The notes beneath the pieces were generated by a model. The model was not told the origin of the DNA. It did no database searches and saw only the letters and a list, made by a program, of their open reading frames with translations. 64,000 nucleotides of DNA from Phoronis australis (Eukaryota > Animalia > Phoronida): assembly GCA_002633005.1 (NCBI GenBank), contig NMRA01000183.1, positions 14,426-78,425 on the forward strand, read 5' to 3'. The position numbers and the translations under genes were made by a program. Shown piece after piece: positions 21,861 through 61,600 of this stretch. The first letter of the stretch is position 1; each line of letters starts with the position of its first letter.

Positions 21861-22245
21861 TACTCGAAATCCAATTCCAATTACATTTGTTATTTTCCAC
21901 TCAACTTTTGTACGACTCAAGACAAGTGTCTATTATTCTATGCTCGACTACATTGTCTTACGTGGATCACTTTTTAAGTCAAAGTTGGCACGTGATGGCC
22001 AAAACATTGAAGCTAAAGGTAGAGTGTGAACTCGGAATTACGAGTTTCTATTCGAAATGCGGGCTTTTTACTCTAGTTTGTAGCACGAATATATGGATCA
22101 CAAAGTAAAAGCTCGGACTAAAATCCCGTAGACGTAAACCATGATGTACTCGACCAGAGAAAAATAACTGGTTATTCAGTGTTCGCACAAAAGTAGAACG
22201 CAAAATTGGAAAAATAATTTCGAGTTTAATTCTGAGTAAAAAGAC
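21840..22245. mobile_element. Older diverged relative of the same MITE family
   Basis: Colinear similarity to 21148-21548, e.g. AAGTGTCTATTATTCTATGCTCGA, GTTTGTAGCACGAATATA, GTTCGCACAAAAG. Confidence 0.7.
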
Positions 22246-25240: not shown

Positions 25241-25905
25241 GAGGATCGTGATGCACTAGATATTGCCAATTATTTCAATGGCTATCAAATTTCATTCAAC
25301 GTGTACTCTTTTTATACTATTTCTATTCTGGTGTCATTCAGCATTATCCACACTTGTATTTTCTTACATAGTTCTGTTACGGTGCACAACGGACTCAACA
25401 ACAATGAAAATGGCCACCAGGTAGAGTATTATAAATCGATCTCTTCAAAAATCTTTTTGTTTACCGAATTTCAGGAAAATCCGATAAGGAAATCTAATAC
25501 AGAGGCAAAGGTAAAAATCTAAAATGTCCACTAGGAGGCACGCAGGTAGTAAAATCCATCCGACAATTCGCTCAAGCCATTATATATGAAGGGAAAATAG
25601 TATATCGAGGGGCTTCATTCGAGATACAGCAGCGGACGTCGGACGAACGGAAGCGGATGATGGCAAAGTGCGCGTGCATATAAATACGTGGGTGCATAAA
25701 AATTTATAAAGATGTCATTTTTGTTATTAGTTTACTATACTTCTATTCTGCCTATAAAGATCGAGTCTGGTTAGAGTGTTATATGTGATGTGTAACCCAG
25801 TGCTCTTTTCAGATTCTTTTGCGTTTCTTTAAGTTATTTGAAACCATTCTAAAGTACTATTTCTTTCCCCCACTTAAGGTTGTAAGTGTCTGTCGTCCAT
25901 CAACC

Positions 25906-34949: not shown

Positions 34950-37900
34950 ATGCCTTAACATTTTCATATAGCAAAGACGAAAATTAAAGGAATGTCAAGC
35001 AACGAGTATTATTCCTTATCAACACGTATTTTATACAAAAAATATACCTTGACCAATCAGAGCTACATGTAATTTACAGCTCATTCGCTGTCTAAAATGA
35101 CAAGGAAAGATGCTTCAGTCAAAGCCACCTCCTTGATTGGACAATATCATTTCGGAGCCATATCTTTGCAACCAATTCCTGATGAATGGAGTCCAATTCT
35201 ATTGACCTCGTCCATGTGCTTGTTATCACTTTCCTTTAATCATTACTGCGTGAATTGTAAATGTTTCAACCTTTCCAACGCCTCTCCTCAACAACACGAT
35301 GTGAGCTACTTCCCATTATCAACTTGTGAATTGATTGGAACCTTAAAACCCTCTGTGTTTCAACAACACTCAGATACTTGGAGCATTTTGAAGCTCTACA
35401 GCTAAGTGTCAATAAGTATTAGTCCTAGGAATGTGAGTTGCAATGAAAGTGACCATTTACAGCCTCCGTGACTGAAGGACGATTTGGAGAGTGTAGTTTG
35501 TGAACCTGTGAACAAATACAAGTAAAGCCACCGTAGGGTCACATTGATACAATCGAAACAAAATAGTACACGCATGAAAGTTCTGCTAATTAAGTCTTAT
35601 TTTCACATCGCTAGTTCCATTGAAACACGAAACTCTTTTGCATTTACATGCTAGGGGCGTGTTTCACATTCACCTCAACATGAGCCATGTAGTGTTTCCC
35701 TTTAATAAACCGGATCCCACGAGATAGCCTCTTCTTCATGATACGATGCAGCAGGTTGACGCAATACTTTTCATATTCCAAAGCCACGTCGAGCTGATGA
35801 AGGTGTACAACCATTTCTCTGCGTTGGGACAATCGTCCGACCGCTTCCGACATTAAGGCGATCAAGAAGTTGAACATCATTACTGGAATTACCAGTACGA
35901 AGCCAACGTGGACAAACATGGGAGATAACTTGTCGCTGGTCTGAACTGAAACCATATTGAGCGTGAGAAGGAAAGTACTGTATAGACTACTGTCCATAGC
36001 AACAAATGCGGGATTAATTCCAATCAAAATTATATGGAACACGAGAGCAAAAGAGAAAACTAAAAACAGAAGGATTATAAAAAACTTCACCACAACTGTA
36101 ACCATTCTTTGAAAAGCTATAACGTAAAAACTTATGAAGCTAATGGGCTGCACGTAGTACATGAATGACCAAACACTCGTTATACACCACATAATTGTGA
36201 GAATTTCAATTTGAGGCAAAAAGCACATCGAGTAACCCAACAGAGTAATCCATGCTATAAAGGCATCAAATTGAATACAGTACTTTAGGACGTCATTCCG
36301 CACCACACGATTAGGTTTCCCGGATAATCGAAAAAAATCTCGATTTTCAAATTTTCTGGAAAATGCCATATCATGTCCTAGCAAAATACCGTTCTGAACA
36401 AGCCCGTTGTAAATTGATATGAAAACAGACAACACAATGTTAATGGCTTCGTTATTTACAATCCTAGTTGAACTCCTCTTAGATGAACAGCTTAAGGATT
36501 CAAGACTAGCTTCGGTGTGATTGTACGTTAGAGAAGCGTTGTCCCTAACGTCTGTGCGGTTATACATTAAAGTAGCGTTGTTTGATGAGACATTGTCTTC
36601 GTGAACAAGATATGGAATGTAATAAACGAACATCATAAAAAGATATACGGCACACATAGCTAGACGAACTGCTAGTGCTATCAAATATACAGGAAATGTT
36701 TGCTTAGTGACACACTCTGCAGCCGGTTTAAGGAACTTTAAGTACTCATCATTGTAATCATCATTGTCTAAACTGTCAAAACCAACACGTTTAACAACTA
36801 ATCTCAGTGGTGAACGATGAATTCGAGTTGCATTTGCCCCATAATAGTCTGTCACGTCGTGCAAATACGTCATTTCGAGACCATGTTCTTCCGTCATACG
36901 GTAGACATTTTCTGTGTTGTAAATGGAACTAAAAAGCTTAAAACATCCAAGCCGCGCCGCTAATTCCAAAGGCCGAAAGTCTTCCAAGTTCTCTTTTAAC
37001 AACATGTTTTTCAAAGATAGTCCGTTGTCTTGTCGGATATAAAAGGACTTGATAGTCTCGTATACGCCGCTGAAATAATGTTCAGATTCAGGCCAAGCAC
37101 TTCCGAAAACAGCAATCATGTGAAAGATGTTGTTACCCCCGTCTTCCAATTCGTCAGACAAGTCGACACCAAATTCAAGCAAAGCCATCACGAGCTCAGT
37201 AGACTTGGACATGACAGCTAGCGTGAAAGGACACGTTATAACGTCAGGAAACGCTCGTAGAAGGAAGCGCCTGTCGTACGAGTTGTGAGAAAGATTCAGT
37301 TTCCCGTTGGCAATGTTTGTCTCATCTGCTGACAGTTTGAGATGTAGAAGGCCTTTACGAGCAGGTGAATCTAGTTTATTCAGTATCACTCTAGCCTGAA
37401 CGTGGTCTCCATCTCTCAAAGCGCGAAACCAGACTTTGTGCAAAGGTTCCCAATCTTCCAATTGCTCAAAATTCACCTCATCGGACTTGTCGACGACCGT
37501 ATCCGCTGGTATTGGGACCACAGCGTTGTGGAAACCTCTAAAACGTGACATTTCCATTAGTTGATTCACGGTCGGACCGTGCTTGCGATCCCGCATCAAC
37601 AGGTTTAGCAATGTTAGTTCGCAAACATGCGCACGTTTATTTATTGGCCAATGCAAATGTGTTTGATTAGTAAACGATGGTGTCTTTTTCACTGTTTAAA
37701 CAGTATCGAAGGTCAACGGTCACCCGCCAACTAATGGCGCTGCGCAGGTCGATGAAAAGAAGCAATAGCCCTGGCCTTGAATTGCCACGAATAAAAACAT
37801 TCTCACATTATTACAGTTAATATCGTTGTGATTGTTTATTATCAAAACATACTTGTTTTCGGGTTGTCAACTTAACGTCTTTGGTACAAATTTAGATAGT

Positions 37901-41566: not shown

Positions 41567-42326
41567 TGTGATATAATGAGTCACTGCAGTAAACGTGCAT
41601 GCAAACATGTCTTAGTCTATTCCCAGGGGATGTGTATACTTCTGTGGTAGTTGAGATTCCTAAGGGATGTACATACCTCTAGAGTGGAAATTATACGGAG
41701 ATTCCTCAGAGGATAGGCATATCCCTGGTGTAGCAAATCTGAGAAGAGTGGCAGTTATGCAAGAATTTTCTATAGGATAGTTAATTAGCTGGTTGTAAGA
41801 GAGATGTACTAAAAGAGGTGGGACCATCACGTGATGGCTCCAAAGGTGTTGTATAAGGCACTGACAGAGCAGACCGACCAGACCGAACCGAACAGGCCAA
41901 CTCGGATTTTCGAAAACTGCGAAGACACGATCTCCGAACAGTGAACGGCAAAGACGAGAGCCAGGACCAGACGAAAAACCACGTATCAAGTCGAAAGTGT
42001 GTAACTGAGGTATAGATGTTTAACACAAGTGTTGGTCTCAGCCTGTTAGTGAATTCGAACCAGTCTAGTGATTGTTCTAGAGGGTTAGTTTTGTTGCGAC
42101 TTGTAATGTGTTTACGTGTGCGGTTGCTACTGGTAACTAGTGGCATTGTTGTTTAGTACTTTCTCTAGCAGTGATATCTCGTCTCAATCAGTTAGTCGTC
42201 AGTCTCGCAACTTATTGTAACTAATTGTTTGTAAATCACAACGCTTCAAATTAATAGACGTATTTTATTGGTTGAGGTATTTGTGTGTTGTTTTAATTAC
42301 TACCACGTGCGCGCCATCTGTAGGCC
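41567..42326 (+). repeat. LTR copy A (5'-LTR-like; terminal ~23 nt missing)
   Basis: Starts TGTGATATAA. It is the reverse complement of 42497-43258 with scattered substitutions. Followed by TTTT-TGGTGTCGCT. Confidence 0.9.
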
Positions 42327-42330
42327 TTTT

Positions 42331-42351
42331 TGGTGTCGCTCCGGCCCGGAT
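42331..42351 (+). promoter_or_regulatory. Candidate primer-binding site
   Basis: TGGTGTCGCTCCGGCCCGGAT directly after LTR A. The cognate tRNA was not identified. Confidence 0.45.
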
Positions 42352-42473
42352 TTTATCCGGTGTGTGGGTTTTGAGACTGACTTTATCGTGAACGAGACGA
42401 AATATCTAAATAGGTCAGAAGTTAGCATAATCTGATCACTGAGCAGTATGGCACATCAGCAACAAGCTACTCG

Positions 42474-43258
42474 TGTGGTGTAATGATTGGTGTTGCGGCC
42501 GACAGATGGCGCGCACGTGGTAGTACTTAAAACAACACACGAATACCTCAACCAATAAAATACGTCTATTAATTTGAAGCGTTGTGATTTACAAACAATT
42601 AGTTACAATAAGTTGCGAGACTGACGACTATAACTGCTTGAGACGAGATATCACTGCTAGAGAAAGTACTAAACAACAATGCCACTAGTTACCAGTAGCA
42701 ACCGCACACGTAAACACATTACAAGTCGCAACAGATCTAACCCTCTAGAACAATCGCTAGACTGGTTCAAATTGACTAAAAGGCTGAGACCAACACCTGT
42801 GATAAACATCTATACCTCAGTTACACACTTTCGACTTGATACGTGGTTTTTCGTCTGGTCCTGGCTCTCGTCTCTGCCGTTCACTGTTCGGAGATCGTGT
42901 CTTCGCAGTTTCCGAAGATTCGAGTTGGCCTGTTCGGTTCGGTCTGGTCGGTCTGCTCTGTCAGTGCCTTATACAACACCTTTGGAGCCATCACGTGATG
43001 GTCCCACCTCTTTTAGTACATCTCTCTTATAACCAGCTAATTAACTGTCCTATAGAAAATTCTTGCATAACTGCCACTCTTCTCAGATTTGCTAAACCAG
43101 GGATGTGCCTATCCTCTGAGGAATCTCCGTTTAATTGCCACTCTAGAGGTATGTACATCCCTTAGGAATCTCAACTACCACAGAAGTATACACTTCCCCT
43201 GGGAATAGACTAAGACATGTTTGCATGCACGTGGAGGGCAGTGCCTTTTTATATCACA
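42474..43258 (-). repeat. LTR copy B (3' LTR, 785 bp)
   Basis: Minus strand runs TGTGATATAA...TCATTACACCACA (TG..CA, imperfect terminal IR) and is preceded by the PPT. Confidence 0.9.
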
Positions 43259-43272
43259 CTCCCCCCTTTTTT
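43259..43272 (-). promoter_or_regulatory. Polypurine tract
   Basis: AAAAAAGGGGGGAG on the minus strand, abutting the LTR B TG. Confidence 0.9.
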
Positions 43273-43716
43273 AAGCCAAAAATTTACATAATAAATTTTT
43301 GGGAAGTCGTAGATTTCTCGACAATATAAAGTGTCACCCAGTTGATCGCCATACAACTGCAATAGATTCAAATAAAGTGAATGATAAGACAAGGGAAGTC
43401 ATCAGCCTCCAGATGATCGTTAAACAGGTTAACAAACAGCATTTCACAACGAAATATCAACCACACTAAACTATCCCAACAATTAACATAATAGGAACAC
43501 ACACATATGCTTATGTCACCAACCCCTCATTACATAATCAAATATACCTTATATTTTTTAAAATTATAATTATGTTACAGTTCCCCTCAAACCAAACCTA
43601 CCAAAAATATTTCATATCATTACTAACTAACTAAAACGTGAATGTTTCACCCCAAACTAAACTAACTGGAGGGGTGTACCTGTGGCGTCTGATAGAAGTC
43701 TGCTGCCAACAGACTT

Positions 43717-44170
43717 TCAGGGACGTCCGCTTCTGCTATGGGCATGTTTTGGAGGACGTCCCCCCAGCTCTGTTTCCAAACAGAATATGCCAACCACGTC
43801 AGCCGTACGACTTTGGTTAGCATACCTCACCTGGGCGTACTCCACACCCATTGCGCGCGGGCCGCCCCACGCCTGACTGTCGCACGAGAGCCCCTCGTAC
43901 GTACGGCCCCTTGCGTACTGGACCCCGGCGAAGTCTCTTATCGATAAAATAGTCATGTCAGCGGTCGGGTCCGCTCGAAACATAACCCACTGGCCGTCCA
44001 CCGAGGCATCAAGCCGTAACTTCGGCAGAGTTTTAAACACCACTTCCTGCTGTTGGGCTGTCATTGTTTGTGTACCGGGTAATCGTGTTCCTGTAATAGT
44101 TCCATATTTCTTACATATGTTACGTATATCTTGTGACGATTTGGAATGTTAATAACCACCACCTTCCTGA
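43717..44170 (-). pseudogene. Accessory ORF between env and 3' LTR, unknown function
   Basis: 115-aa ORF (44064-43717) with the frame open upstream (QDIRNICKKYGTITGTRL). An adjacent frame reads RKVVVINIP. Confidence 0.45.
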
Positions 44171-44252
44171 CGACTATCTAGCGCACTGTAAGACCTCTAT
44201 TGTAAGGATCGGTAGTAGGCCTACTACTACGGTGTATACTGACTGCTCGAAG

Positions 44253-46604
44253 TCACATGGAGGTTTCCTTCTGGTCCTCTCCAGTTTCCGGATCCAAGGT
44301 AGGATACATACGTCGGACGAATTGCTTCATCTCGATTGGTTTGCCATTCCACTGGGCCGATACGGTCTGGTGTTCGTCAGCACTGGGTTTCTCCCCAGCC
44401 GGTGACGTCTGTCGGGCATCGTTCGGTGCGCTCATGAATGCGAACGCTGGCGGTGCACTGGCAACTGGGCGGCTACCATCCGTTAACACAGGCTGATACT
44501 GTTTACGTATGGCACGTGCAATTTGTCTACGTCTCAACAAAACAATTAACCCCAAAATTAATAGCGATGCTGCTATTCCTAGAGCGACATATAACCAAAA
44601 TTCATTATCGGGGGCCCATGGTTTTGGAATTTCCAAGTCTCGTAAATCAGTGACTAATGTTGATGATTGGTGAGACATTGCGCACAAACTGGACTTAATG
44701 GTCAGGATGATATGCCGGTTAACAAAAGAACACTATGATTCTGTACAAGAAACTATCTTTAGACTGTTTTATTATATGATCGCATTAATATATATACACA
44801 AGTAGCGTGCCCATATAAGGCAAGATATAGCAAAACTGCATTCCAAGACTATAGCATTCCACTAATTAACTCTTATACAACTATTTCTTATGCAATTCTT
44901 ATACAACAATCTCTTATGCAATTCTTATACAATTTCTTATGTAATTTATAATACATCATGGAGATCATCCTCCAACAACTAAACCGTCAAGGGGAATTTC
45001 GGGTAAGTGAGCGAGACGTGGGGGTATTTTTACTTCCACGTGTTTAGGAAAAGCTGCTATATAAGGAGACCACATCGTGAAGGTTCCGAATTCTCAAAAC
45101 TCGAGCGAAGCTATCCGGATGATCGTATCTAGATTCCCTGTGAAAAGTTCCCAGGAGGGTCATAGCTGGGTGTGTGGCCTGGCATCCGTAATCGACGTGT
45201 ATCATATTTACCCCAATGTCCACCGTAACTGATTTAGTGTTAGTGCGACTGCGGTTGCACAGAAGGGCAAACCTTGTAATCTGGTTACTAACTACAGCGT
45301 ACCAGCCAGATCTCAAATATATGGCCTGTGGTAAAGATGTATTTGTTTTAATAAAAACACGACAGGACCTTTTGATAGCATAGCCAAAATTCATGAACAG
45401 AGCCACCACACAATCTTTGCTTAAATTGACAGGGCGTAAAGGTTGTCGGGTCTCACAAAAACTAAGCGACGAGCACGCCTTCATGATGGTATAATCTAGT
45501 AAGGCATACAGTAGGACGTTCGTTCTGGGTTTATGGCTAACGCTGTGGCCTCCAATGAATACTTTGCCAAAATGTGAGAGCGGTTGGAATTAGGGAAGGG
45601 AGCTGGTAGATGAATTTGAAATAATTCCATCCGTGCGTAAGTGTCAATTAATGATATCCGAAATGTGACCAAGATTCGTCCATTTTCCCACGCAGTATGA
45701 CACGGGAGAGACTTATAATATTGGAACAACTCCGTGTCAGGATCAAAAGGTAATTTTAAATGGCGTTGAATATTCGTTCGTATGTCCTTTAATATTTTGC
45801 GTAGTGCTTCTGGCTGAACCACCGCTGGAGTAACTTGTCCCGCAGACACTATTCCTATTTGACTTTCAATGTGAGCTAAATAGCCTAAGGCTTTTTTCCC
45901 TGCCAATTCCAAGTGGTTTAAAATAAGTTCTAAATATATGTAACTTTGGGTGAAGACAGACAAATCCTGTATTTCATCGTGTAGCATATCAGTCACGTTA
46001 TTAAGACGTTGTGCTATTTCATAAGTCGAAAGAATCAAGTCATTCAAGGTCTCTCGGTTTTTATTCACTTCGGTTCTAGTGGCTTTCATTACGGTTATCC
46101 GTTTCAATGCGTTAGTGACGATCCTCTTTTGGTTCCTTACTATCATATCGATTGTTTCCCTAATAGCTTTAACATCATCATCAGTGGCTGTGCCAAATAG
46201 CCAATGACTGATTTTCCCCATAAAAGGCAGGAGACTCCGTTTGCTTCTGTTACCTCGAAATTGGGCCAAAGTGTTATAGCCAGTCAACAACTGGTCTGTG
46301 TCCTCTTTCGTGAATCTGATATCATCAATTTGTTTTCTTAATCTGGAAAAATATTCCAAGAAATTGACATCTTGGGATCAGCGTACTTTTTCTCTATTTG
46401 GGTATACGTATAGTAAGCACGTTCTATGTTCCGTGAAAACTTGGACATGAACTCAGAGAATTCTCCGAGGTCAATGAAACTCGTCACCCACCAGTGTCCC
46501 CACGGACTATAAAATAAATTAATTTTCTCAAAAACTACCCCATTTTTGACAACGACGCATTGCACGATACCAGCCAACAACAGCAAACCTGTCAATCGTT
46601 GCAT
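44253..46604 (-). pseudogene. env: Envelope glycoprotein, class I fusion (F-type / errantivirus Env-like), frameshifted and interrupted
   Basis: Signal peptide MQRLTGLLLLAGIVQC. Furin site and fusion peptide RSKR|SLLPFMGKISHWLFGTATDDDV. Heptad region, Cys-rich region, TM FWLYVALGIAASLLILGLIVLL-RRR, cytoplasmic tail. Confidence 0.88.
44658..44977. mobile_element. Nested 320-bp solo LTR of a different family (5-bp TSD; BEL/Pao- or Copia-like ends)
   Basis: TGTTG...CAACA termini. ACTAA at 44653-44657 and 44978-44982. Confidence 0.88.
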
Positions 46605-46611
46605 TGTCTCT

Positions 46612-46630
46612 CTGAAACAACAATAATCAC
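46612..46630 (-). promoter_or_regulatory. Candidate env splice acceptor
   Basis: Minus strand TTATTGTTGTTTCAG|AGAGACA-ATG, 7 nt before the env start. Confidence 0.6.
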
Positions 46631-46890: not shown

Positions 46891-49800
46891 TTAGGTCATT
46901 TTTCTACACTTTCGGCCTCTTCTTTTGTCCAATCGCGCGAGGACGTTCACATCCATGGCTTCATCATCTGGTCGTGGTCCCATTGCGACGACCATATTCG
47001 TCTCTTCTGACGGCATAAACTGCTCGTCGTTTGGTGCGGAGAGGTCCGTCATCGGATCCGACTCAGCTTTGGACTCGGGTTCTTCGCTTTCAGATGATGG
47101 GGTCTCTGGATCCTCCATCTGTGGCACTGTCTTCGTCTGAGCCAACGTCTTCACTTGCCCCCTCTGTTGGAGCCTTCTTTGAAGTTCCGCTAAGGGTACG
47201 TCAGAGTCATCGGAGGATGAATCCCACTTCATTTGGAGGAAATGATCCTGCAGACCTTGCTGTGGTTCGTCGTCAGACACATTGCTTCCTTCGCTAGAAC
47301 TGGGAAGGACGGCGTAGCGCGCTCTCCTCATTTGTGGATAATCGTCGTCATTCACCTTCCAGTCGTCGATTTGTGCCCATCTCAAGTTGTCAATGTGTGA
47401 CTTGGTGACTGTCCCATCTAACTGATTCCGGATGACATTTCAGACAGTCGTTCTAGGACGCGCCAATAATCTGTCCACTTAGGGTCCAGTTTGCTGGTTT
47501 TAGAATTATTTTTAGGGTACACGGGATCGCCAACTTCCTAATTCAACCAAAACTCTACCCTTATTCGCGGTAGCTAGTCTTTTGTTCTGATGGTGTTTTA
47601 TAACCCGATAAACTGTCCTAAAAACTCTATGTTGGTTTTATAGAATAACCATTATGTTCTCCCTCGCCCACGTACTTAGCACGTGGGCGCATTATGTTAT
47701 GTACAGGAAGTTTAGGGTCTCTACCGAACATAAGAAAATAACTGCTATACCCAGTATAATTGGTATGAAAATTTAAACAAGACTCTGCTTGACTGAGATG
47801 AACATCCTATTGTTCGGGGTTTTCACGGCATAATTTACTCAAAACGTCACCAAGTACTTTGTGTGATCGTTCGACTCGGCCATTTGCTTTTGGATTGTAA
47901 AAACTTGTGGTAACATGCCGAATGTTAAATGATTCCAAACCATCTTTCACTGTTTTGTTTGCAAATTCAGAGCCGTTGTCTGAGACCAAAATGTTCGTTA
48001 TACCAAATCTACAAAAGGTATCAGTGGTTAGGATTCGTGCGATTGTGGCAGCACTCTTATCCGGCATCGGATACAACAACGTATAATTTGAAAACCAGTC
48101 AGAGTCAAAATATATCGGTTACCACTGGGTGAAGGTTTCATAGGACCGACACAATCTATTGCTACTTGTTGCCCGGGGCCGTTCACAACATTAGACGCCA
48201 CCAGCGGAGATTTAACTGCTTTTAGATTTCGTTCCTGGCATGTAACGCATGCTGAAACATACTTCTCAATGTCTTTGAACATTCTAGGCCAGAAATAACT
48301 GTTTCTAGACGACTGATAGGTTCGATCTATCCCTGCATGTCAGTTGATCGTGATATTGTTCGATGACTAGCGACTGCAAATGTTCAGGGATGTACAGACG
48401 AATCTTGACGTCGCCGTGATCGTCGGAAACATAATATAGGACATTTTCTTTGAGTAAATACTTGTTTCCAATTCTTTTGCTAGGCTTAGGAAACGACAGT
48501 TCATCGATTATTGCCCTACACTCTTGATGTTTCTTTTGTTCCTCTTGCATATTCAGTTCTAACTTAGGCATTTGCAATTCAGAGGTAAAATTAGGTATAG
48601 GAGGACTCTCCATTTCATGAGACTTAGGATCAATTCTGCTGATATCTACTACGTTAACCTGTGCTATCGAAGCCTGAACCTCAAAGGTCCTATCGTCTAC
48701 ATCAAGAGTTTCCTCGTCAATCGCATTATCGTCGTTGGAGGGCGCTCTGCTCAGCAAGTCAGCTATCGTGTTATCCTTGCCGGGAATATGTTTAATTTCA
48801 ACATCATAAGCCGAAATGAGTACCGACCATTGCGCCACTTTCTAATTTTGTATGTCGCTTTTAAGCAAATAAATGAGGGGCATATGGTCCGTGAAAAGCG
48901 TGATTTTGGAATTGTAAATGCAGTGTTCGAATTTCTTAAGGGCCATCAATACCGCGAAACATTCCTTTTCTATGGTTGCCCAACGCTTTTGTGTGTCAGT
49001 CAGTTCTTGCGACATAAAGTAGATAGATTTTTCAACTACATCTTCGTCTTTACACTTTTGTACCAAACAGGCCCCAATTGCAAAATCACTCGCATCGGTG
49101 TATATGATATAACTCAATTTGGGATCAGGATTATTTAGCATCGGAACGGCGGAAAGGTGTTCTTTGATAAATTTGAAAGCGTTTTCGCATTCGGGTGTCC
49201 ATTTAAATCTGGCATACTTCTTGGTCAGTTCAGTCAATGGAGTCATAATGCCCGCCAAATTAGGAATAAACCTTCGATAGTATGACAGAATTCCTTGCAG
49301 TGCCCTTACTTCTATTACCGTGGCTGGTCGTTTCATTGATCTAATAGCCGAAATTTTGGCTGGACCAGGGCGGATCCCTTCTTTATCTACTATGAAGCCC
49401 AGACAGTTCGTTTGAGGCTTAAGAAATTGGCGTTTGGACAATTTCAACTTCAAATTATGTTCTCTGAGGCGCTGGAAAACGATTTTCAAATGTTCGACGT
49501 GTTCAGTGACACTTTTACTATAAATAATGCAATCATCGATATAGGCCCGAGCAAAAGGGAGTCCTTCTAAAACGATGACATGAGTTCTTGCAAGAAACTG
49601 GGACTATTGCAAAGTTCGAATGGCATAACTTGAAATTGGTAAAGATTTGACAAGTTAAAAATCCAGGATAGAAAGCGGTCTTTTCTTTGTCATCAGGGTG
49701 CATTTGAATCTGCCAAACACCACTACGTACGTCCAATGAACTACATGTATAAATACTTGAACCCCTAAGATCGTTCAATATGTCATCAATTTTCGGTAGA

Positions 49801-50930
49801 AAGAACGAATAACCTTTAGTTACACTGTTTAGTTTCCTATAGTCTACACAAAACCTTACGCTACCATCCTTTTTGGTTACTAATACTATAGGTGCGCAAA
49901 AGTTGGATCTAGAGGGTTAATATAACTTTCGCAGAAAGCATTTTATTCACCGCTTCTTTAGCTATTTGCTGCTTCGCTATCGGAAGTCGATATGGCCTCT
50001 GCTTGACAACTGTGCCGTCCGGCACGTCTATGCGCATTTGTATCGTGCTCGTTTTCCCTAAATCGAGATCGGTTGCTGCGAAAACATCGCCATTTTGCTT
50101 CACTAAGCTAACATACTCATCAGGTGTATCAATCTCGGATAAGTCCAACGTTTGTTTACTAACCGACTGGGCCGATGTTGATTTATCTAATACATTCATA
50201 ATGTTTGCATTACTTAGCTCTTCAACCTTTCCTACTGCAACTCCTCGTTTTATCTTGATATATCGGCCAGAATTATTGATTATTTCTACCGGAAAATTTC
50301 CGGCCTTGCCCGGCTTTATTACTGCGTTTGAAATTGACAAGCCAGGTTCTGAATTTAGGAATCCGGTTGTTAAAGGTGACGCCTGGAATATTTGTTGTCT
50401 TTTGCTACCCCTGGCGGCGCAACTTCTGGAGCGACATACAACCTTGGAATAAGGTCTAACTATAATTTCTTTGATTACTCTAACATAAGACTTAACCAGC
50501 GAATCTTGAATTAAGGGTGTGTAAAGTTCTTTTATTCGTAACATTCTGAGATCAAAGTAGACACAATTATTCTTATGAAGAAAGTCTTCCCAATTATCAT
50601 TCTTCAGTTTGCATGTACATCTCGAATCACTACAAATTCATGATTGAGAATATTGTTTCCGATTTTTAAGCTTAACAGGACACAAGCGAGGACATTCAAA
50701 CGTTGATTATCTGCTGTCTGAACTACAGGTTTTCGATTAACTATTTCTACCAAGTCTTTTCGTTTAAGCTCTTCAAATGTAACTTCCGAAATAACGGATA
50801 TTGCAGCACCCGAGTCAATTAGCGCTCTGACTCGCGTCTATCCTACCTGTACTTGAATACTATCCTCGCTTCCCAAAAAACATAAAGTTACAACATCATC
50901 CTGACTCGTGGAAGCTCTCGAGTCAGTGCA
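46891..50930 (-). pseudogene. pol: Gypsy pol (PR-RT-RNase H-IN), many frameshifts and stops
   Basis: ALIDSGAAISVI (PR). QRPYRLP, RFCVDYRKLN, LDVRSGVWQI, AYIDDCII (RT). YTDASDFAIG..EKECFA (RH). CVTCQ, IDCVGP, SDNGSEF, NGRVERSH (IN). Acidic C-terminal tail. Confidence 0.93.
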
Positions 50931-50942
50931 CATTAGTTTCCC
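50901..50942 (-). promoter_or_regulatory. -1 programmed ribosomal frameshift signal (gag-pol)
   Basis: Slippery GGGAAAC (50942-50936) directly before TAA, 9-nt spacer, then stem CTGACTCG/CGAGTCAG (50926-50901). Confidence 0.8.
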
Positions 50943-51860
50943 TGGGGGTTAACGTCATGTGGCGTGGTATCAGCAGGGCTTGGGTTGGCAGAGTAATTAA
51001 CTGGCTTCTGATTCGGTTGGGCGGCCAAAAATCTTTTAAAACTGAAACAGTCACGTTTCATGTGGCCAAGTTTTTTACAAAAGAAACATCTGATTTGTTC
51101 TTTGTCTAGAGCGGAGCGTTAACAGTGCTGGGCGCCCGACAGTCCCTCGTCCTATGATTTGTTCTGTTGCAAATTCTGCATCTTTGAGGAGGGGATATTT
51201 TGTCAATGCCCATAGGACTGATTTCCCGGTTATCTCCCGGTTTTAAATTCATTAGCGCCCATAGGTGTATTTCCAGAACAGCAACTTTAAGGTTGTCCCT
51301 GAGAGTTGTTGGACCTGAACGTAGGACGTGCTCTCATATTCTCGCGTCCTGGAGCCCATCCACAAAAAACCCAATTAATTGTTCTTGTAGAACGTCCAAT
51401 GCCGCCTGGTCGTCAAACGCTTCTCGCGCTGCCGACAACAGTCGCTCGCCATACATTTCGTTTGGTCGTTGCTTAATTGATTTTAATCGACCAAATGTCA
51501 AAATTTTGTCAGTGATAGGGGCAAAGCGCAATTAAATTCTGCTTTAAACTGCTCATACATGCGTTGTGTGTGGTCTGCCGTATAACGTTTAATGAATGCC
51601 GAAACTTCACCCCCCGATCTTTGATATGCAATTAAGATTTGTTTCCTGGAATCCATACTGAAAAAAATTACGGCCATCTTTTCTATCTCGCTCACCCAAG
51701 CTCGAAACCCATGAACATCTCCTGAGAAAACGGGGATATTTGACGCCAGTGACGTTTCGCTCATGGAATTCGTAGCATCGGTAACATCTCTGGTGAAATT
51801 GCCTGCAAGTCCCGTAAAAATTCGGCTAAGTCTACTCGTCCACTTTGGCAAACGTGTCAC
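50933..51860 (-). pseudogene. gag: Gypsy gag, decayed
   Basis: IPVFSGD..FRAWVSEIE, IKQRPNE, LIGFFVDGL, and zinc knuckle CFFCKKLGHMKRDC (~51085-51045). Confidence 0.88.
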
Positions 51861-52315
51861 AAAACAATCTCAGACTGCAATACATCGGTGATTTTTATCA
51901 CTTTCCTTTAACCAATATTTAATGAATTGTACATTTTTCAAGCATTCCAGCAATACTCCCCAACAGCATGCTTTGAGTTCTTCCCACACGTGTGAACTGA
52001 ATATGAACCTTAAAACTCTCAGATATTTCGATCATTTTTGAAATCCCTACAGCTTTATATATAAGTTTCACTATCCACTAGTCCCAGGAATGTAAGTTGC
52101 AATAAAAGTGTCCGTCTACACACTCAGTAACTAAACTTTGAGGACGGTTTGGAGGTGGAGTGTCGTTTGTGAACCTGTAAACGAGTATTGTAAAACAACT
52201 CTAGGGACACATTGATACAATCGAAATAAAGACATAATACACGTATAAAAATCTCTGCTAAATGAGTCATGTTTTTATATCGCAAGCTCCACAGAAACAC
52301 GAAACTCTTTTGTAA

Positions 52316-54361
52316 TTACATGCTGGAGGAATGTTTCACATTCACCTCAACATAAGGTATGTAGTATTTCCCGTTGATAAACCGGAACCCACGTGATAGC
52401 CTCTTCTTTATAACACAATGAGTCTCCCGTTCAGTAGCGCTAGGACCTCACTAAAACGCAAGACTTCGCGAGTTTCGTGAGACATTCCCGTATATTTTAA
52501 ATTAGAACACATGACTTTGACTAGATTTTAGCTAAGTCCAAGCGTAGGTCCTAGCCTTCCTGAACGCACCCCGGCACGGCAATATAAACCGGAACCTACG
52601 TATTAGCCTCTTCTTTATAACACAATGCAGCACGGCGACGCAATACTTTTCATATTCCAAAGCCATGTAGAGTTGATGAATGTGTAAAACCATTTCTTTG
52701 TGCTGGGACAATCGTCCGCCCGCTTCCGACATTAAGGCGATCAAAATGTTGAACATCATATTTACAGGAATGACGAGTACGAACGTAAAGTGGACAAACA
52801 TGGGAGATAATTGATTGCTGGTCTGAACTGAAACCATATTGAGCGTGAAAAGGAAAGTATTGTATAGACTACTGCCCATAGCAACAAATGCGGGATTAAT
52901 TCCAATCAAAATTGTATGGAACACGAGAGCAAAAGAGAAAACTAAAAACAGAAGGTTTATAAACAACTTCACCATAACTGTAACCGATTTTTGAAAAGCC
53001 ACAGTGTCAGTAAAAACTTATGAAGCTAATAGGCTGCACGTAGTATATGAAAGACCAAACACTAGTAATGGATCAGGACCACATAATTGTGAGAACATCA
53101 ATCTCAGGAAAAATGCACTTCGAGTAACCTAATAGAATATCCCATGCTATACAGGCATCAAATTGAATACAGTACTTTAGGACGTCGTTGCACACCACAT
53201 AATTAGGTTTCCCGAATCCTCGAAAAAATTTCGTTTTTCAAATTTTCTGGAAAAGCTGATATCAAATCTTAACAAAACACCGTTCTGTACACACTCATCG
53301 TAAATTGATATGAGCGCAGAAAATACCATACTCACGACTTCGTTCAATTGACGAGATTAAACAAAGTTTAATTTAACAGTTTAAGGATTCAACGCTGCTT
53401 GTTGTGTGGTTGTATATTAGAGAACAGTTGTCTATAACGCTTTGTGGTTGTACATGTACATTAAAGCAGTTTTGTGTGAGGAGATAATGTCCTCGTGAAC
53501 AAGGTATGAAATGTAGTACGCGAACATCATGAAAAGATATACGGCACACATAGCCAGACGAACTGCTAGTGCTATGAAATATACAACAAATGTTTGCTTA
53601 ATGACATACTCTGCAACCAGTTTAAGGAATTTTAAATACTCATCATTGTAATCATCATTGTCTAAACTGTCAAAACCAACATGTTTAACATCTAATCTCA
53701 ATAATGAACGATAAATTCGAGTTGCATTTGCCCCATAATAGTCTGTGACGTCCTGCAAATGCGTCATTTCGAGACCATGTTCTTCCGTGTTCCGGTAGAC
53801 ATTTTCTGTGTTGTAAATGGAACTAAAAAGTTTAAAACATCCAAGCCGCGCCGCTTATTTCAAAGAACAAAACTCTTCCGAGATCTCCTTTAGTGACATG
53901 TTTTTCAAGGACAGTCCGTCGTCTTGTCGGATAGAAAATGACTTGATAGTCTCGTACACAACGTTGAAACAATGTTCAGATTCAAGCCAAGCACTTCCGA
54001 AAACAGCAATCATGTGAAAGATGTTGTAAGCAAGCGTAAAAGAACGCGTTATTGTGTCAGGAAGTACTCGTAGAAGGAAGCCCCTGTCGTACGAGTTGTG
54101 AGAAAGATTCAGTTTCCCGTTGGCAATGTTTGTTTCGTCTGCTGACAGTTTGAGATGTAGAAGGCCTTTACGAGCAGGTGAATCTAGTTTATTAAGTATC
54201 GCTTTAGCCTGAACGTGGCCTCTATCCCTCAAAGCTCGAATTCAGACTTTGTGCAAAGGATTCCAAGCTTCCAAGTGCTCTTCATTGCATGGGTTGACTA
54301 GTATATCCGCTTGTACCGAGAAGACAGCGTTGTGGAAACCTCAAAAACACGCCGTTTCCAT
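52316..54361 (-). pseudogene. Disabled paralog of the TRPV-like gene
   Basis: High colinear similarity to 35644-37557. Deletion of the VMSKS..EDGG ankyrin segment, stop at 53855, frameshifts, and an insertion at 52421-52583. Confidence 0.92.
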
Positions 54362-57300
54362 TAGTTGACTGACGGTCGGACAGTGCTTGTGACGCTGCAA
54401 TAAGAGGTTTAGCAACGTAAGCTCACATGTTTACTGATTGGCCAATAAAATACGTTTTTCACTATGTAAACAATATCGGAGGCTTTAGGTCACCCGCCGC
54501 AGTTGGTAAAAAGTGGTCGATCAAAAGAAGCAAAATTTGGGCTGGAATTGCTACGAATAAAAACATTCTCACATTATTATAATTTATATCACTGTGAATA
54601 TTTATTATCAAAAGGTACTTGTTTTGTTTTATATCGGGGTGTTACGTCTTTTGTGCAGATATAGATAATGGAATGGTTGAAATTCCATTGATTTACAATA
54701 TGCAGTCATGATAAGCATTTACTTCAATAAGGCATTTCCTCCATTTCAACAGCTTAAAATGATCCTGTAGTTTGAAAGCCAAGTAATGCAACTGTTTCAA
54801 GTTTGTTAAAGATACTTTTTTCACTTCACATTAGTTAAGAACGGCTTTTAGCGCAAGATAGTTCAGCCGAACAACAAGCCCAAATAATGTTCATTTTATA
54901 AAGCTCCAAACATTTTGAAACGTTATCGAATTTATTGTAATTTTTTACTATACTTTCTGTATTTTGTAGTGCATCTCCACCTAAAATAGCCGCCGCATGG
55001 AGTGGCAGGTGATTACTGGGTTATCGGTTCTCGCTCAACTGCATCATATGTAATAAGGTTTCCTCGGACACCCTGTGTACTTTTAAAAGGATTATTTCAT
55101 TTTGGTAGTAAAATCAGGTAATCAAAAGCAGTGCTGAAAGCCAGTATCAGTTTCGTACATGAAGTAAAAATCGATAAGGTATCCGTGATTGATATTTGAT
55201 TAATCACAGACGAACTGGAACTCAATCAATAATCTACATGTACATGTAGATACTACATGGAAATTTAATTATCCACAGCGACATTTGACTTCATGTAGCT
55301 CCCATAGGAAGATATCCTAATTACGTTAAACCTTGTTACTTTAACTAGAGCTCGTTCTTTCAACCATTGCCTATTAGAATATAACTGTTTGCGCAGATTG
55401 AATAGTCGTAAGATGTTGTTAAATTTTTCTTGTTGTTTTACATCCCGTTTTGATTGTTATGAATTAATAGCAGGCTGCTAATAATTCAATCACAGCATCA
55501 TTCCTGGAAATCTCCTTTGCTCATTCATCATTCCTCAGAGATAAGAAAGTATCATAAGTTATAACGATTGACGACAAACCTTGAAGGAAAAATAACAACC
55601 CTTGAAAATGGTTGATATGGGTTAATAAAAAGATATTTTCACATAAAGTATATCCAACTCAAATTTCCTCCACTTATCAACGTAACATTGCATTCAACAT
55701 ACGGAGGCTCAGTGGTCTGTAAACTGTGTTCACTGACCACAAACACGCACTAACAAATCATGGCTTACGCATCCAAAAGTTTGTCTCACAGACTCACAGC
55801 CACAATACACGGCGCAAGGACCACACTACGACCAAGACCCATGTAAAAGGCGATCCACAGACTCCAACACAGAAACCAGAATTTCGCGCATGAGTTGGTA
55901 CGGCTCGACAAGCATTGGTTTTCTACAAAATTTGAAATGTTCTTCCTTCTTGAGCAGCTGATACAAAACGTACATGGATTAGAAAATAATGAACCTCTGT
56001 TCTGCTCACTTGGCCTCTGCAAGAATTCGCGATCCCAAATTAAAAAGGCACGCGGCCTGCAGTATTGGACTGTTTGTGTCCTGACAAAAGCAAAGGAGAC
56101 GTCAACTATGATCGAGGAAGTCAACGAGTGAAAGAATTTCGTAACAGAAAGACATTACAGCAGTTTACAAGGCCAACTGCACAAAATCGCGACAGAATAC
56201 CCATTTCTGTTGGAGTAGAAACTGTTTAGATTTTACCTAAATTTTGACAAATGTTACCATACGCATTTTATCGAAATTGCGATAACTTGCCATATGCAAA
56301 TCAAAGATGAGCAGCTAACACCACTTTAAACTCTGTGAAAATCGACATTTTATTGACACAATTGTTGAACTAAATTCTGACAAAATGTTTGTCCAAGTTG
56401 GGAACGATCTGACAGTTTTGGAGCAGTCTGCCTAGCTAAGTTTTTGGAAATTAAAGTGCTGAGGTGTAGATCGTATCGCATATCGCAAGGTAGAATGCCT
56501 TGCGAGAAAGACTGGACGTGGAAACGAACAGCAAATAGCCAAGGTTTCATTGAAGCTTTAATGAACGGGAAGGATTGCAAGATGTGTCGCTCATGCATGT
56601 ACAATGTCGGGCTTCATGGCACCTTTTCCAATTGTTTATTTAACTAATTGCATGATACAGAAATAGGCCATACCTACTGTGTGGCATTTACATGTCAACA
56701 TTATTTTGTTTGACCATTGGCAACACTTTGCTGTAATTCCAATGGGAAGGGAAGTGATTATATGAATCAACGGAGATAGCTTAATTTAACGAAATGGCGA
56801 CCGTCAAAGTTGTTACACTCTAATGGTAATTCTGTGTTGGCATTCAACTTCCATTAGCGTTTAATTGGTGAAACACTCAATAGAATCTCGATCTCTTTAC
56901 AAACATTTGAAAGCGAAGGAAATTTACCCCAGTCTCAAACAAATGCTTAACGTAACTTGAACGGGTTCACCACTTATCATGAATAATTGTGCTGATGACA
57001 TCGACGATACTGCACCATCTTGTCAATGGTTGGGTAAATGCAGACGAGGATAATGAATATGACCATCATGATGATGACGTCCGGCGGTGATGATGATGCG
57101 TGCTAGTGGTGTTGATATGATGATGTTGATAATAATATTGATTTTGATAACACGGATGGTGATGACTGATGTGGTAGTCGAATCCCCTTTTGAGTGTTAG
57201 AGAAACAGAAACAAAAAACTTATTTTGCAGAAACAAGACCTCTGAATCTGGGAGAAAATGTTGACTTAAAGTTTTACAAGTTTCTTGCGAGTGGGGAACA

Positions 57301-58740: not shown

Positions 58741-59340
58741 ACCGCTAAAAAACAACCAACAAACACTTAATAAACTTCTTCCTCGCTGCGCCGCCAATTT
58801 AGACATGTGATTAACAGTTCTGGTGGTAAGTGAGAGTTTCACGACTCAGTAACTTAGATGAGTAAGACACAAAGTGGAGAAGGAACCTATTCCAGAAGAA
58901 AGAACGTGAACTCTTAAACCTATTGCAAAATTCCCCAAAGAACGTCATGTCATTATGGTCGAAATATTGCATTTTCTGGTAATATTGAAATAAAAGACAC
59001 TAGTAAGGTTGTATGCGACTTCAAGGCCATGTCACTTACACTAAGGCCACGCCTTCTTTCAATCAACCATGCTCTATTCTACATGTAAGTATCACCTGAC
59101 ATAAACCATTCCAAGAGAGAACTGAATTAAATAACAAAAGAACACATCACTGACTTGAATAATAAAAGAACACGTCAATGACGTTTTGCAAAGATTATTT
59201 TGGAAGGCATAGGCCTAAACAATGTATTTCCTCAGGACATTTAAGAGCATACTAAACGATGTTTTGATGATTTCCAGCAATCCTGGTTTTATCACCAGTT
59301 AATTCATCACTGGCGTTCATCTTCGAAGTTAAAAGCAGGA

Positions 59341-61600
59341 ATTATACTCATACTTCCTGTGTCACTGATTAATCATAATCATACTCCCTGTGTCACAGAT
59401 TGATCATACTCACACTCTCTGTGTCACAGATTGATCATACTCATACTCCCTCTGTCATAGATTGACCATACACATACTCCCTGTGTCACAGATTGATCAT
59501 ACTCACACTCCCTGTGTCACAGATTGATCATAATCATACTCCTTGTGTCACAGATTGATCATAATCATACTCCCTGTGTCACAGATTGATCATAATCATT
59601 CTCCCTGCGTCACAGATTGATCATACTCATACTCCCTATGTCGCAGATTGATCATACTCATACTTCCTGTGTCACAGACTGATCATATTCTAACTCCCCG
59701 TGTCACAGATTGATCGTAATCATACTCCCTGTGTCACAGATTGTACTCACACTCCCTATGTCACAAACTGGTCATACTCATACTCCCTATGTCGCAGATT
59801 GATCTTACTCATACTTCCTGTGTCACAGATTGATCATAATCATAATCCCTGTGTCACAGAGTGATCATACTCATACTCACTGCGTCACAGATTGATCATA
59901 TTGATACTCCCTGTGTCACAGATTGATCATACTCACACTCCCTGTGTCACAGATTGATCATAATCATACTCCGTGTGTCACAGATTGGTCATACTCACAC
60001 TCCCTGCGTCACAGATTGATCATACTCACACTCCCGGTGTCAGATTGATCATACATATACTCCNNNNNNNNNNNNNNNNNNNNNNNNNNNNNNNNNNNNN
60101 NNNNNNNNNNNNNNNNNNNNNNNNNNNNNNNNNNNNNNNNNNNNNNNNNNNNNNNNNNNNNNNNNNNNNNNNNNNNNNNNNNNNNNNNNNNNNNNNNNNN
60201 NNNNNNNNNNNNNNNNNNNNNNNNNNNNNNNNNNNNNNNNNNNNNNNNNNNNNNNNNNNNNNNNNNNNNNNNNNNNNNNNNNNNNNNNNNNNNNNNNNNN
60301 NNNNNNNNNNNNNNNNNNNNNNNNNNNNNNNNNNNNNNNNNNNNNNNNNNNNNNNNNNNNNNNNNNNNNNNNNNNNNNNNNNNNNNNNNNNNNNNNNNNN
60401 NNNNNNNNNNNNNNNNNNNNNNNNNNNNNNNNNNNNNNNNNNNNNNNNNNNNNNNNNNNNNNNNNNNNNNNNNNNNNNNNNNNNNNNNNNNNNNNNNNNN
60501 NNNNNNNNNNNNNNNNNNNNTGTGTCACAGATTGATCATACTCAGACTCCCTGTGTCACAGATTGATCATACTCACACTCACTGTGTCACAGATTGATCA
60601 TACTCACACTCCCCGTGTCACAGATTGATCATACTCATACTACCTGTGTCGCAGATTGATCATACTCAGACTCCCTGTGTCAGAGATTGATCATACTCAT
60701 ACTCCCGGTGTCACAGATTGGTCATACTCATAATTCCTGTATCACAGATTGATCATACTCTAACTCCCCGTGTCACAGATTGATCATAATCATAATCCCT
60801 GTGTCACAGATTGTACTCACACTCCCTATGTCACAAACTGGTCATACTCATACTCCCTGTGTCACAGATTGATCATACTCCCACTCCCAGTGTCACAGAT
60901 TGATCATACTCATACTTAATGTGTCAGAGATTGCTGATACTAACACTCCCTGTGTCAGAGATTGATCATAATCATACTCCGTGTGTCACAGATTGATCAT
61001 ACTTATACTCCCTGTGTCACAGATTGATCGTACACTCCCTGTGTCACAGATTGATCATACTCATACTCCCTGCGTCACATATTGCTCATACTCATACTCC
61101 CTGCGCCACAAATTGATCATACTCATACTCCCTGGGTCACAGATTGATCATACTCACACTCCCTATGTCACAAATTGATCATATTCATACTCCCTGTGTC
61201 ACAGATTGAACATACTCACACTCCCTGTGTCACAGATTGATCATACTCATACTCCCTGTGTCAAAGATTGATCATATTCATACTCCCTGTGTCACAGATT
61301 GATCATACTCATAGTCCCTGTGTCACAGACTGATCATAATCACACTCCCTGCGTCACATATTGGTTATACTCATACAACATGTGTCACAGATTGATCATA
61401 CTCATACTACCTGTGTCACAGATTGGTCAAACTCACACTCCCATCCCTGTGTCACAGATTGATCATACTCATACTCCCTGTGTCACAGATTGATCATATT
61501 CACACTCCTTGTGTCACAAATTGATCATACTCATACTCCCTGTGTCACAGATTGATCATACTCACACTCCTTGTGTCACAAATTGGTCATTCTCATACTC
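59341..61600. repeat. 31-bp satellite array spanning an assembly gap
   Basis: Unit ACTCCCTGTGTCACAGATTGATCATACTCAT, dozens of diverged copies. Confidence 0.97.
60064..60520. other. Assembly gap (N run)
   Basis: Ns inside the satellite. Confidence 1.

What the first reader, a model, noticed from the sequence alone, without database searches (positions are those of the whole stretch)
44253..46630. Gypsy element with a complete, reconstructable F-type envelope gene in an apparently non-insect invertebrate
Seen: four ORF fragments join into one env. It has a signal peptide, an RSKR furin site followed by SLLPFMGKISHWLFGT, long heptad helices, a Cys-rich region, a TM anchor and a cytoplasmic tail, with a splice acceptor 7 nt upstream. 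Known: insect errantivirus Env and baculovirus F share the RxxR-GxxxxxLFG architecture, and gypsy env is made from a spliced RNA. Inference: this is an endogenous, once potentially infectious retrovirus-like lineage in a lophotrochozoan-type host, possibly undescribed.
Basis: partly seen in the sequence, partly recalled or inferred. Interest (0 to 1): 0.85.

Follow-up and report, generated by a model that had tools for sequence, protein, structure and literature searches.

The report
Broken envelope-carrying gypsy retroelement, known class
This is a broken copy of a gypsy retrotransposon whose envelope gene belongs to the baculovirus-F fusion-protein family, a kind already catalogued in many non-insect animals; what looks new is that the envelope tails of this family carry motifs predicted to recruit the host's budding machinery.

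Summary
On the minus strand lies a decayed gag–pol–env Ty3/gypsy element with polypurine tract and 3' LTR but no 5' LTR. The env pieces match Pfam Baculo_F above cut-off and an intact natural 666-aa protein at 55–59% in its three main pieces. Signal peptide, RSKR furin site, fusion peptide, six conserved cysteines, anchor and tail are present. Env is in five pieces, not four, and is not an intact gene; a 320-bp solo-LTR-like insert with a 5-bp target duplication interrupts it.

'Possibly undescribed' fails: Chary and Hayashi (eLife 2026, PMC13524379) list 1,512 env-carrying gypsy elements, with F-type env in annelids, molluscs, nemerteans and a hemichordate. The host phylum could not be fixed, and splicing at the acceptor could not be tested.

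Two leads were not in the finding. First, env tails of the family carry a (L/I/M/V)YPx(L/I/M/V) motif (46 of 111; shuffles 0.7) and P(S/T)AP (22 of 111; shuffles 0.5), the ALIX and TSG101 late-domain patterns, suggesting envelope-assisted budding. Second, a 115-codon ORF between env and the LTR weakly resembles a retroviral protease; this is unproven. Verdict: new member of a known kind.

The parts
50930..51869 (-). gag remnant (capsid-like N-terminal piece and two CCHC zinc knuckles in different frames); left end approximate
   Evidence: ORF 51498-51869; two CX2CX4HX4C motifs; no Pfam hit for the N-terminal piece
50577..50891 (-). aspartic protease of pol (LIDSGA), with two in-frame stops
   Evidence: tblastn with the L001 protease, E=2e-10
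48875..49913 (-). reverse transcriptase (YIDD) and RNase H, broken into several frames
   Evidence: Pfam RVT_1, RT_RNaseH, RT_RNaseH_2; 46-60% identity to L001
48347..48841 (-). [quoted passage not shown]
   Evidence: likeness to the 'mini' domain of PMC13524379 is inferred, not folded
46891..48339 (-). integrase (H2C2, core) and acidic C-terminal tail of pol, broken
   Evidence: Pfam Integrase_H2C2, rve; tblastn with L001
46612..46626 (-). splice-acceptor-like pyrimidine tract and CAG, 7 nt before the env ATG
   Evidence: sequence; similar site 22-24 nt before the env ATG in L001 and L002, background 15-18% of ATGs; no junction reads, depth under 1x
46368..46604 (-). env piece 1: signal peptide and start of ectodomain
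   Evidence: 59% to P0001 residues 1-79
45505..46353 (-). env piece 2: furin site RSKR (46248-46237), fusion peptide (46236-46189), long helical region
   Evidence: 55% to P0001 residues 85-366; Pfam Baculo_F above cut-off
45083..45508 (-). env piece 3: cysteine-rich region, six conserved Cys
   Evidence: 58% to P0001 residues 364-505
   Evidence: 40% to P0001 residues 493-542
44658..44977 (.). 320-bp insert with TGTTG...CAACA ends and a 5-bp TTAGT target duplication (44982-44978, 44657-44653); likely a solo LTR of another element
   Evidence: RNA reads of sister copies skip it
44253..44657 (-). env piece 5: transmembrane anchor (from 44591) and cytoplasmic tail with SAP (44459-44451) and MYPTL (44309-44295)
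43717..44064 (-). extra 115-codon ORF between env and the 3' LTR; retropepsin-like by language-model features only, DPTA where D(T/S)GA is usual
   Evidence: no Pfam, PDB or database homologue
43259..43272 (-). polypurine tract
   Evidence: sequence directly upstream of TGTG
42497..43258 (-). 3' LTR, about 760 bp; exact 3' end uncertain
41567..42348 (+). sister LTR in inverted orientation (30 mismatches in 760) followed by a primer-binding-site-like TGG tract at 42331
   Evidence: the tRNA was not identified

Best explanation
This is a 5'-truncated, decayed gag-pol-env Ty3/gypsy insertion whose env belongs to the baculovirus-F family, and whose intact ancestor likely made a spliced env RNA, a furin-cleaved trimeric fusogen and enveloped particles that would pass from cell to cell as Drosophila gypsy does. 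Shown: gene order, family match, motifs, breaks, and sister copies present in DNA and RNA runs. Inferred: splicing from a leader exon to the acceptor at 46612, cleavage after RSKR to free the fusion peptide, class I refolding, and soma-to-germline spread. Also inferred, and less sure: the tail motif YPxL (with P(S/T)AP in relatives) docks ALIX and TSG101, so that Env helps the particle bud. This copy is dead: env, pol and gag are all broken and the 5' LTR is absent from the window.
For: Pfam Baculo_F on two env pieces and on 7 of 8 closest intact relatives tested. A profile of 120 relatives finds two PDB 'fusion protein' chains, 9w4d and 9w4c, at E=1.7e-19 and 2.2e-17, aligned across the furin site and fusion peptide; the next hit is E=0.0026. 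The representative search found 2,326 relatives at E<=0.001 and 229 at E<=1e-30. Furin plus fusion-peptide pattern in 81 of 120 aligned relatives. L001 shows the same PR-RT-RNaseH-bridge-IN-acidic tail-env layout with an open 740-codon env frame. Acceptor-like site before env in the window, L001 and L002. PMC13524379 describes this architecture and its host range; PMC12992720 describes spliced env-F with the same parts in Drosophila (passages). Tail motifs.
Against: No usable structure model: both folds were single-sequence and failed. No pol tree against named elements was built, as reference sequences were not to hand. No splice junction seen; depth under 1x at the acceptor. Only 57 of 111 tails carry either late-domain pattern, and the window's own tail has ASAP, not P(S/T)AP. 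PMC13524379 states that the mode of transmission is unknown outside Drosophila. No intact copy in this genome was shown: no assembly is held and no contig spans the stretch laid.
Confidence: 0.85

Rival explanations
1. The family had already reverted to an intracellular retrotransposon, and env was a passenger decaying in all copies of this genome.
For: Env is broken in four places here. Env loss happened repeatedly in Drosophila lineages (PMC12992720 passages). No intact copy from this genome was seen.
Against: Pol is as broken as env: 9 aligned pieces with 10 in-frame stops, 6 of them in the last, poorly aligned piece, so decay is not env-specific. 18 of 20 family-conserved env positions survive. 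Sister copies lack the insert.
Confidence: 0.2
2. The tail motif is an ordinary tyrosine sorting signal (YxxPhi, adaptor-mediated endocytosis or polarised targeting) and has nothing to do with ESCRT budding.
For: YPxL also fits YxxPhi, a signal common in viral glycoprotein tails (own knowledge). Generic YxxPhi is also enriched, 64 of 111 against 42.5 in shuffles. YP-x-L-like strings also occur in the broken gag region, frame uncertain.
Against: The fixed Pro and preceding hydrophobic residue are not needed for YxxPhi. The independent P(S/T)AP pattern is enriched in the same tails (22 of 111 against 0.5), absent from 61,478 ectodomain residues, and [ST]AP precedes YPxL in 23 of 25 tails that have both.
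Confidence: 0.4
3. The host is an arthropod (even an insect) and the element belongs with the insect errantiviruses.
For: Host not identified. PMC13524379 finds some insect elements inside the ancient group.
Against: No insect protein is named among the 120 listed of 281 hits for the neighbouring ITIH-like gene. All three env relatives named with an organism, of 20 looked up, are molluscan. The env piece scores higher on Baculo_F than on the Pfam Gypsy env model, which stays under its cut-off. The RNase H-integrase bridge is short, 114 aa.
Confidence: 0.07
4. The 115-codon ORF after env is a chance open frame, not an accessory gene.
For: No homologue. L002 carries unrelated ORFs after env. Differences in sister copies are 12 synonymous of 32, against 8.35 expected, P=0.10. 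Two 2-nt insertions occur in some sister copies. The atlas hits share only 117-126 of 256 features, and a third of shuffled proteins also get ten concordant hits.
Against: An open frame this long arose in 33-34 of 2,000 shuffles in an otherwise broken element. All ten best atlas hits with a family share the retropepsin clan at 0.90-0.92. The four listed differences at codons 30-34 (R, D, P, T) are all synonymous (noticed after the fact; codon 35 changes).
Confidence: 0.5

Closest known systems
'Ancient errantiviruses' with F-type Env (Chary and Hayashi, eLife 2026, PMC13524379)
   Same: gag-pol-env order, Ty3/gypsy pol, F-type env with signal peptide, furin site, fusion peptide and anchor; reported in annelids, molluscs, nemerteans and a hemichordate.
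   Different: This copy is broken and would fail that paper's intactness filter. The main text has no occurrence of 'late domain', 'ESCRT', 'ALIX', 'cytoplasmic', 'budding', 'accessory' or 'splic'.
Drosophila errantiviruses (gypsy, ZAM, Idefix) and their Env-F
   Same: Spliced env-F with signal peptide, furin site, fusion peptide, conserved Cys, anchor and tail (PMC12992720 passages).
   Different: Only a sub-threshold match to the Pfam Gypsy env model (22.2 bits, cut-off 27.5). Insect elements carry a pseudo-RNase H in the bridge; the bridge here is 114 aa.
Baculovirus F protein family (Pfam PF12259; PDB 9w4c and 9w4d 'fusion protein')
   Same: RxxR followed by a G...LFG fusion peptide, helical region and Cys-rich region align by profile.
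   Different: Encoded by a retroelement, not a DNA virus; the link is profile-level only. That the two PDB chains are baculoviral is my reading of their motif from recall; the call names them only 'fusion protein'.
Bdelloid rotifer LTR elements with extra ORFs (PMC5408684, abstract read) and lokiretroviruses (PMC7947760, search listing only)
   Same: Precedents for paramyxovirus-like F env on non-insect LTR elements and for captured extra ORFs.
   Different: The rotifer abstract lists GDSL esterase, DEDDy exonuclease and dUTPase, not a protease-like ORF after env; lokiretroviruses are vertebrate retroviruses.

Membership tests
Ty3/gypsy (Metaviridae-type) LTR retroelement | pol order protease-RT-RNase H-integrase | tested here: met
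Ty3/gypsy (Metaviridae-type) LTR retroelement | LTRs, polypurine tract, primer-binding site | tested here: inconclusive
   3' LTR and tract present; 5' LTR absent from the window; a PBS-like tract follows only the inverted sister LTR
Ty3/gypsy (Metaviridae-type) LTR retroelement | RT groups with Ty3/gypsy against Bel/Pao, Copia and Retroviridae in a tree or clade-profile test | not tested
   no named reference sequences at hand; gypsy-type Pfam RNase H and H2C2 models hit strongly, the Pao model only at E=0.1
Errantivirus in the operational sense of PMC13524379 | env-like fusogen gene downstream of Ty3/gypsy pol | tested here: met
   env ATG 287 nt after the pol stop; Baculo_F
Errantivirus in the operational sense of PMC13524379 | intact gag, pol and env frames (the paper's inclusion filter) | tested here: not met
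   env in five pieces; pol in 9 pieces with 10 stops. This concerns the copy, not the family
'Ancient errantivirus' group | RNase H plus 'mini' domain in the bridge | tested here: inconclusive
   114-aa bridge homologous to L001; not folded
'Ancient errantivirus' group | position in the published pol tree | not testable with these tools
   the paper's sequences are not in the supplements listed
F-type class I fusogen | signal peptide, furin site, adjacent fusion peptide, conserved Cys, anchor | tested here: met
F-type class I fusogen | trimeric class I fold | tested here: inconclusive
   single-sequence model pLDDT 39; profile match to solved fusion proteins
Retropepsin (for ORF 44064-43717) | D(T/S)G catalytic motif | tested here: not met
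   DPTA in the window; D, P and T codons differ only synonymously in transcribed sister copies
Retropepsin (for ORF 44064-43717) | profile or fold match | tested here: inconclusive
   no Pfam hit at E<=10; atlas 0.90-0.92; fold pLDDT 36

The most novel reading that the evidence does not exclude
In this large invertebrate env family the envelope tail, not only Gag, carries the ESCRT late domains (ALIX-type YPxL, TSG101-type P(S/T)AP), so Env drives particle budding; and this lineage also carries, after env, a divergent protease-fold accessory gene. The probability given is for the tail part; I put the accessory gene being real and protease-fold at about 0.3.
Probability: 0.4. Interest if true: 0.7.

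Novelty: new member of a known kind. Interest (0 to 1): 0.36.

Why it matters
The finding as posed adds one more decayed example to a published class, so it matters little. The tail motifs could matter. How env-carrying gypsy elements leave cells outside Drosophila is stated to be unknown (PMC13524379), and retroviral late domains are described in Gag proteins such as HIV-1 p6 (PMC7995964 passages). If the envelope tail recruits ESCRT in these elements, gain and loss of env would switch budding on and off together with fusion, which would help explain how an intracellular retrotransposon becomes a virus in one step. It can be tested with short peptides.

Tried and rejected
Whole-genome search: no assembly held. 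Single-sequence PDB search with the env piece: nothing better than E=0.57. AlphaFold on the env piece and on the extra ORF without alignments: pLDDT 39 and 36, not used, so no fold search was run. Homodimer prediction for the extra ORF: no answer, score 0.00, not evidence either way. Viral-contig scans: none of 138 pattern matches for env; one 23-residue match for the extra ORF, L006, rejected as chance. Extra ORF against the L001 protease: no similarity, E=3. Run search: no RNA holder listed; RNA runs came in by species label. Splice junction at the env acceptor: none listed, depth under 1x, uninformative. Library orientation was not controlled, so sense or antisense transcription is open. 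Env tree (quick method, 65 rows): the window groups only with P0001, deeper nodes unresolved. Host tree from the ITIH-like gene (25 of 120 listed hits used): long branch, unplaced. TRPV-like gene in the atlas: chordate and mollusc clusters score alike. PPxY in tails: not enriched, 3 of 111 against 1.4. No tRNA gene in the window. Four look-ups of earlier findings returned nothing. Literature searches for env-tail late domains or a protease-like ORF after env in invertebrate gypsy elements listed no such paper; I saw listings only, apart from passages of PMC8220671 and PMC7995964, and the library lacks most subscription journals.

Full report
What is there. On the minus strand, from about 51869 to 42497, lies a gag-pol-env LTR element. 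Gag shows a capsid-like start and two CCHC knuckles in different frames. Pol has the order protease, RT, RNase H, integrase (Pfam RVT_1, RT_RNaseH, Integrase_H2C2, rve). Against the nearly intact relative L001 it falls into 9 aligned pieces with 10 in-frame stops, 6 of them in the last and weakest piece. Env starts 287 nt after the pol stop. After env come a 115-codon ORF, a polypurine tract at 43272-43259 and a 3' LTR from 43258. There is no 5' LTR in the window: just upstream of gag begins a broken duplicate of a TRPV-like host gene.

The env gene. The 293-aa piece hits Pfam Baculo_F at E=1.6e-8, above the curated cut-off, and the next piece at E=0.0017. A database protein, P0001 (666 aa, intact), aligns in five pieces from residue 1 to 651 at 59, 55, 58, 40 and 26% identity. 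The insertion is 320 bp with TGTTG...CAACA ends and a TTAGT duplication, the marks of a solo LTR. Reads from sister copies skip it: 6 reads over three runs at one joint and 3 at a nearby one. RSKR sits at 46248-46237 and the fusion peptide follows; the anchor begins at 44591. Of 20 positions conserved in at least 90% of 120 aligned relatives, the window keeps 18, all six Cys among them. A profile of those 120 finds two solved 'fusion protein' chains (9w4d, 9w4c) at E=1.7e-19 and 2.2e-17, aligned across the furin site, fusion peptide and Cys region; the next hit is at E=0.0026. My own folds were single-sequence and failed, so the class I fold is inferred from these profile matches.

The family is large. 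P0001 finds 2,326 representatives at E<=0.001; 7 of 8 top ones tested pass the Baculo_F cut-off. Of 20 looked up, three are named with an organism, all molluscs (bay scallop, black abalone, blue mussel), at about 30% identity. L001 and L002, 2 of 5 loci from the metagenome scan, show the same env behind a gypsy-type pol or integrase end. In a quick tree the window groups only with P0001.

Splicing and expression. The acceptor-like site ends 7 nt before the env ATG. L001 and L002 have a similar site 22 and 24 nt before theirs, where 15-18% of all ATGs in these sequences pass the same loose test; the two loci are close kin, so this is about two independent cases. In three RNA runs 910, 904 and 877 reads were laid, of which only 3, 7 and 9 were 99% or more alike, so they come from sister copies or another individual. 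Depth is 7-22x on one strand over 43235-44702 and 0-7x over the rest of env, pol and gag; at the acceptor it is under 1x and no junction is listed. The library's orientation was not controlled, so the direction of transcription is open.

Host. Not determined. No assembly is held. The ITIH-like neighbour has best hits near 36% in fish, hemichordate, mollusc and unnamed records, with no insect named among the 120 listed of 281, and is unplaced in a tree. The TRPV-like gene scores alike with chordate and mollusc clusters. A non-insect invertebrate is likely; 'lophotrochozoan' is plausible but not shown.

What is known. PMC13524379 (abstract, Results sections 5 part 1, 6, 7 and 8, Discussion part 1, Methods section 14, the list of files, and parts of Supplementary file 1 read) catalogues 1,512 env-carrying gypsy elements. 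All but one of the annelid rows in part 1 of 34, all 15 mollusc rows shown, both nemertean rows and the one hemichordate row are F-type; the words Brachiopoda, Phoronida and Cephalochordata do not occur in that table, and the text reports none in echinoderms or sponges. It separates an ancient group with a short 'mini' bridge from the insect group; the bridge here is 114 aa, like L001's 115, which fits the ancient group but was not folded. I could not compare sequences with the paper's set. PMC12992720 (passages) gives the spliced env-F anatomy in Drosophila and repeated env loss.

How it likely worked. Shown: the parts and their order. Inferred from the Drosophila and viral relatives: a spliced env RNA, entry into the secretory path, furin cleavage that frees the fusion peptide, trimer refolding, and passage of enveloped particles between cells. 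This copy cannot do so, since all three genes are broken.

Lead 1, the tail. The alignment showed a shared YPxL near the C-terminus. Of 150 proteins examined, 111 had a clear anchor and a tail of 30 aa or more (39 dropped). (L/I/M/V)YPx(L/I/M/V) occurs in 46 of 111 tails (shuffles: mean 0.7, maximum 3) and P(S/T)AP in 22 (mean 0.5, maximum 3); PPxY is not enriched. In 61,478 ectodomain residues the two patterns occur 4 and 0 times, against 46 and 22 in 9,365 tail residues; 57 of 111 tails have one or both, and 54 neither. The window has MYPTL and ASAP; L001 has IYPKL. These are the YPXnL and PTAP/PSAP late-domain patterns (PMC7995964 passages); their partners ALIX and TSG101 are from my own knowledge. 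Cautions: the patterns were picked after looking at 8 rows, the proteins are kin, most have no genomic context, and YPxL also fits an endocytosis signal. The main text of PMC13524379 does not use these terms, and searches listed no paper on it.

Lead 2, the extra ORF. The frame 44064-43717 is open for 115 codons from Met; shuffles reach this in 33 of 2,000. The atlas gives retropepsin clusters at 0.90-0.92, with low shared-feature counts. No Pfam, PDB or database match was found, nor any likeness to the L001 protease. Among the 40 listed of 95 differences in sister copies, 32 fall in the ORF: 12 synonymous against 8.35 expected, P=0.10; two apparent stops each share a codon with a second change; the four changes at codons 30-34 are all synonymous. 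Two 2-nt insertions occur in minority copies. I rate it about even that the ORF is a real gene.

Verdict. A real feature, correctly read in outline, and a new member of a known kind. Interest 0.36, most of it from the tail motifs.

Noticed in passing
window 44253-44535 (-) and env relatives P0001-P0152: Env tails carry (L/I/M/V)YPx(L/I/M/V) a median 7 residues from the C-terminus (46 of 111) and P(S/T)AP (22 of 111); 39 of 150 proteins were dropped for lacking a clear anchor or tail. The patterns were chosen after seeing the 8-row alignment, and the proteins are kin.
   Followed up: partly
window 43717-44064 (-): Open 115-codon frame between env and the 3' LTR, retropepsin-like by language-model features, DPTA motif, covered by RNA reads of sister copies at about 4-22x.
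   Followed up: partly
window 41567-42496: A 96%-identical sister LTR in inverted orientation, followed by a PBS-like tract and about 170 nt, abuts the end of the 3' LTR; likely a nested insertion followed by a deletion.
   Followed up: partly
window 42550-44122: A recurring RNA joint skips 1,571 nt (3 reads in X7, one contig in X8, two studies), removing the extra ORF and most of the LTR. On the minus strand it can be read GT...TG in the window; either a splice in a variant copy or a deleted copy.
   Followed up: no
window 44341 and 50470: An opposite-strand joint in all four runs laid points to a transcribed, rearranged sister copy elsewhere.
   Followed up: no
window 35644-37695 (-) and 51888-54956 (-): Single-exon TRPV-like channel ORF (683 codons) and a broken duplicate, about 85% identical, that abuts the truncated 5' end of the element.
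   Followed up: partly
window 25789-28074 (+): Single-exon inter-alpha-trypsin-inhibitor heavy-chain-like gene (VIT and vWA domains in its relatives) with a hydrophobic C-terminus; best hit about 36%.
   Followed up: partly
window 13244-15001 (-): Non-LTR retrotransposon fragment with RT and RNase H.
   Followed up: no
window 59236-61000 and 20917-21872: Tandem arrays of 31 nt (across an N gap at 60064-60520) and 28 nt.
   Followed up: no
L002 4384-5084 (+): A related element also has open frames after env (131 and 223 codons), unrelated in sequence to the window's extra ORF.
   Followed up: partly
P0002, P0003: More distant F-like proteins (819-901 aa) with the same furin and fusion-peptide pattern, two hydrophobic stretches and a long C-terminal extension.
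   Followed up: no
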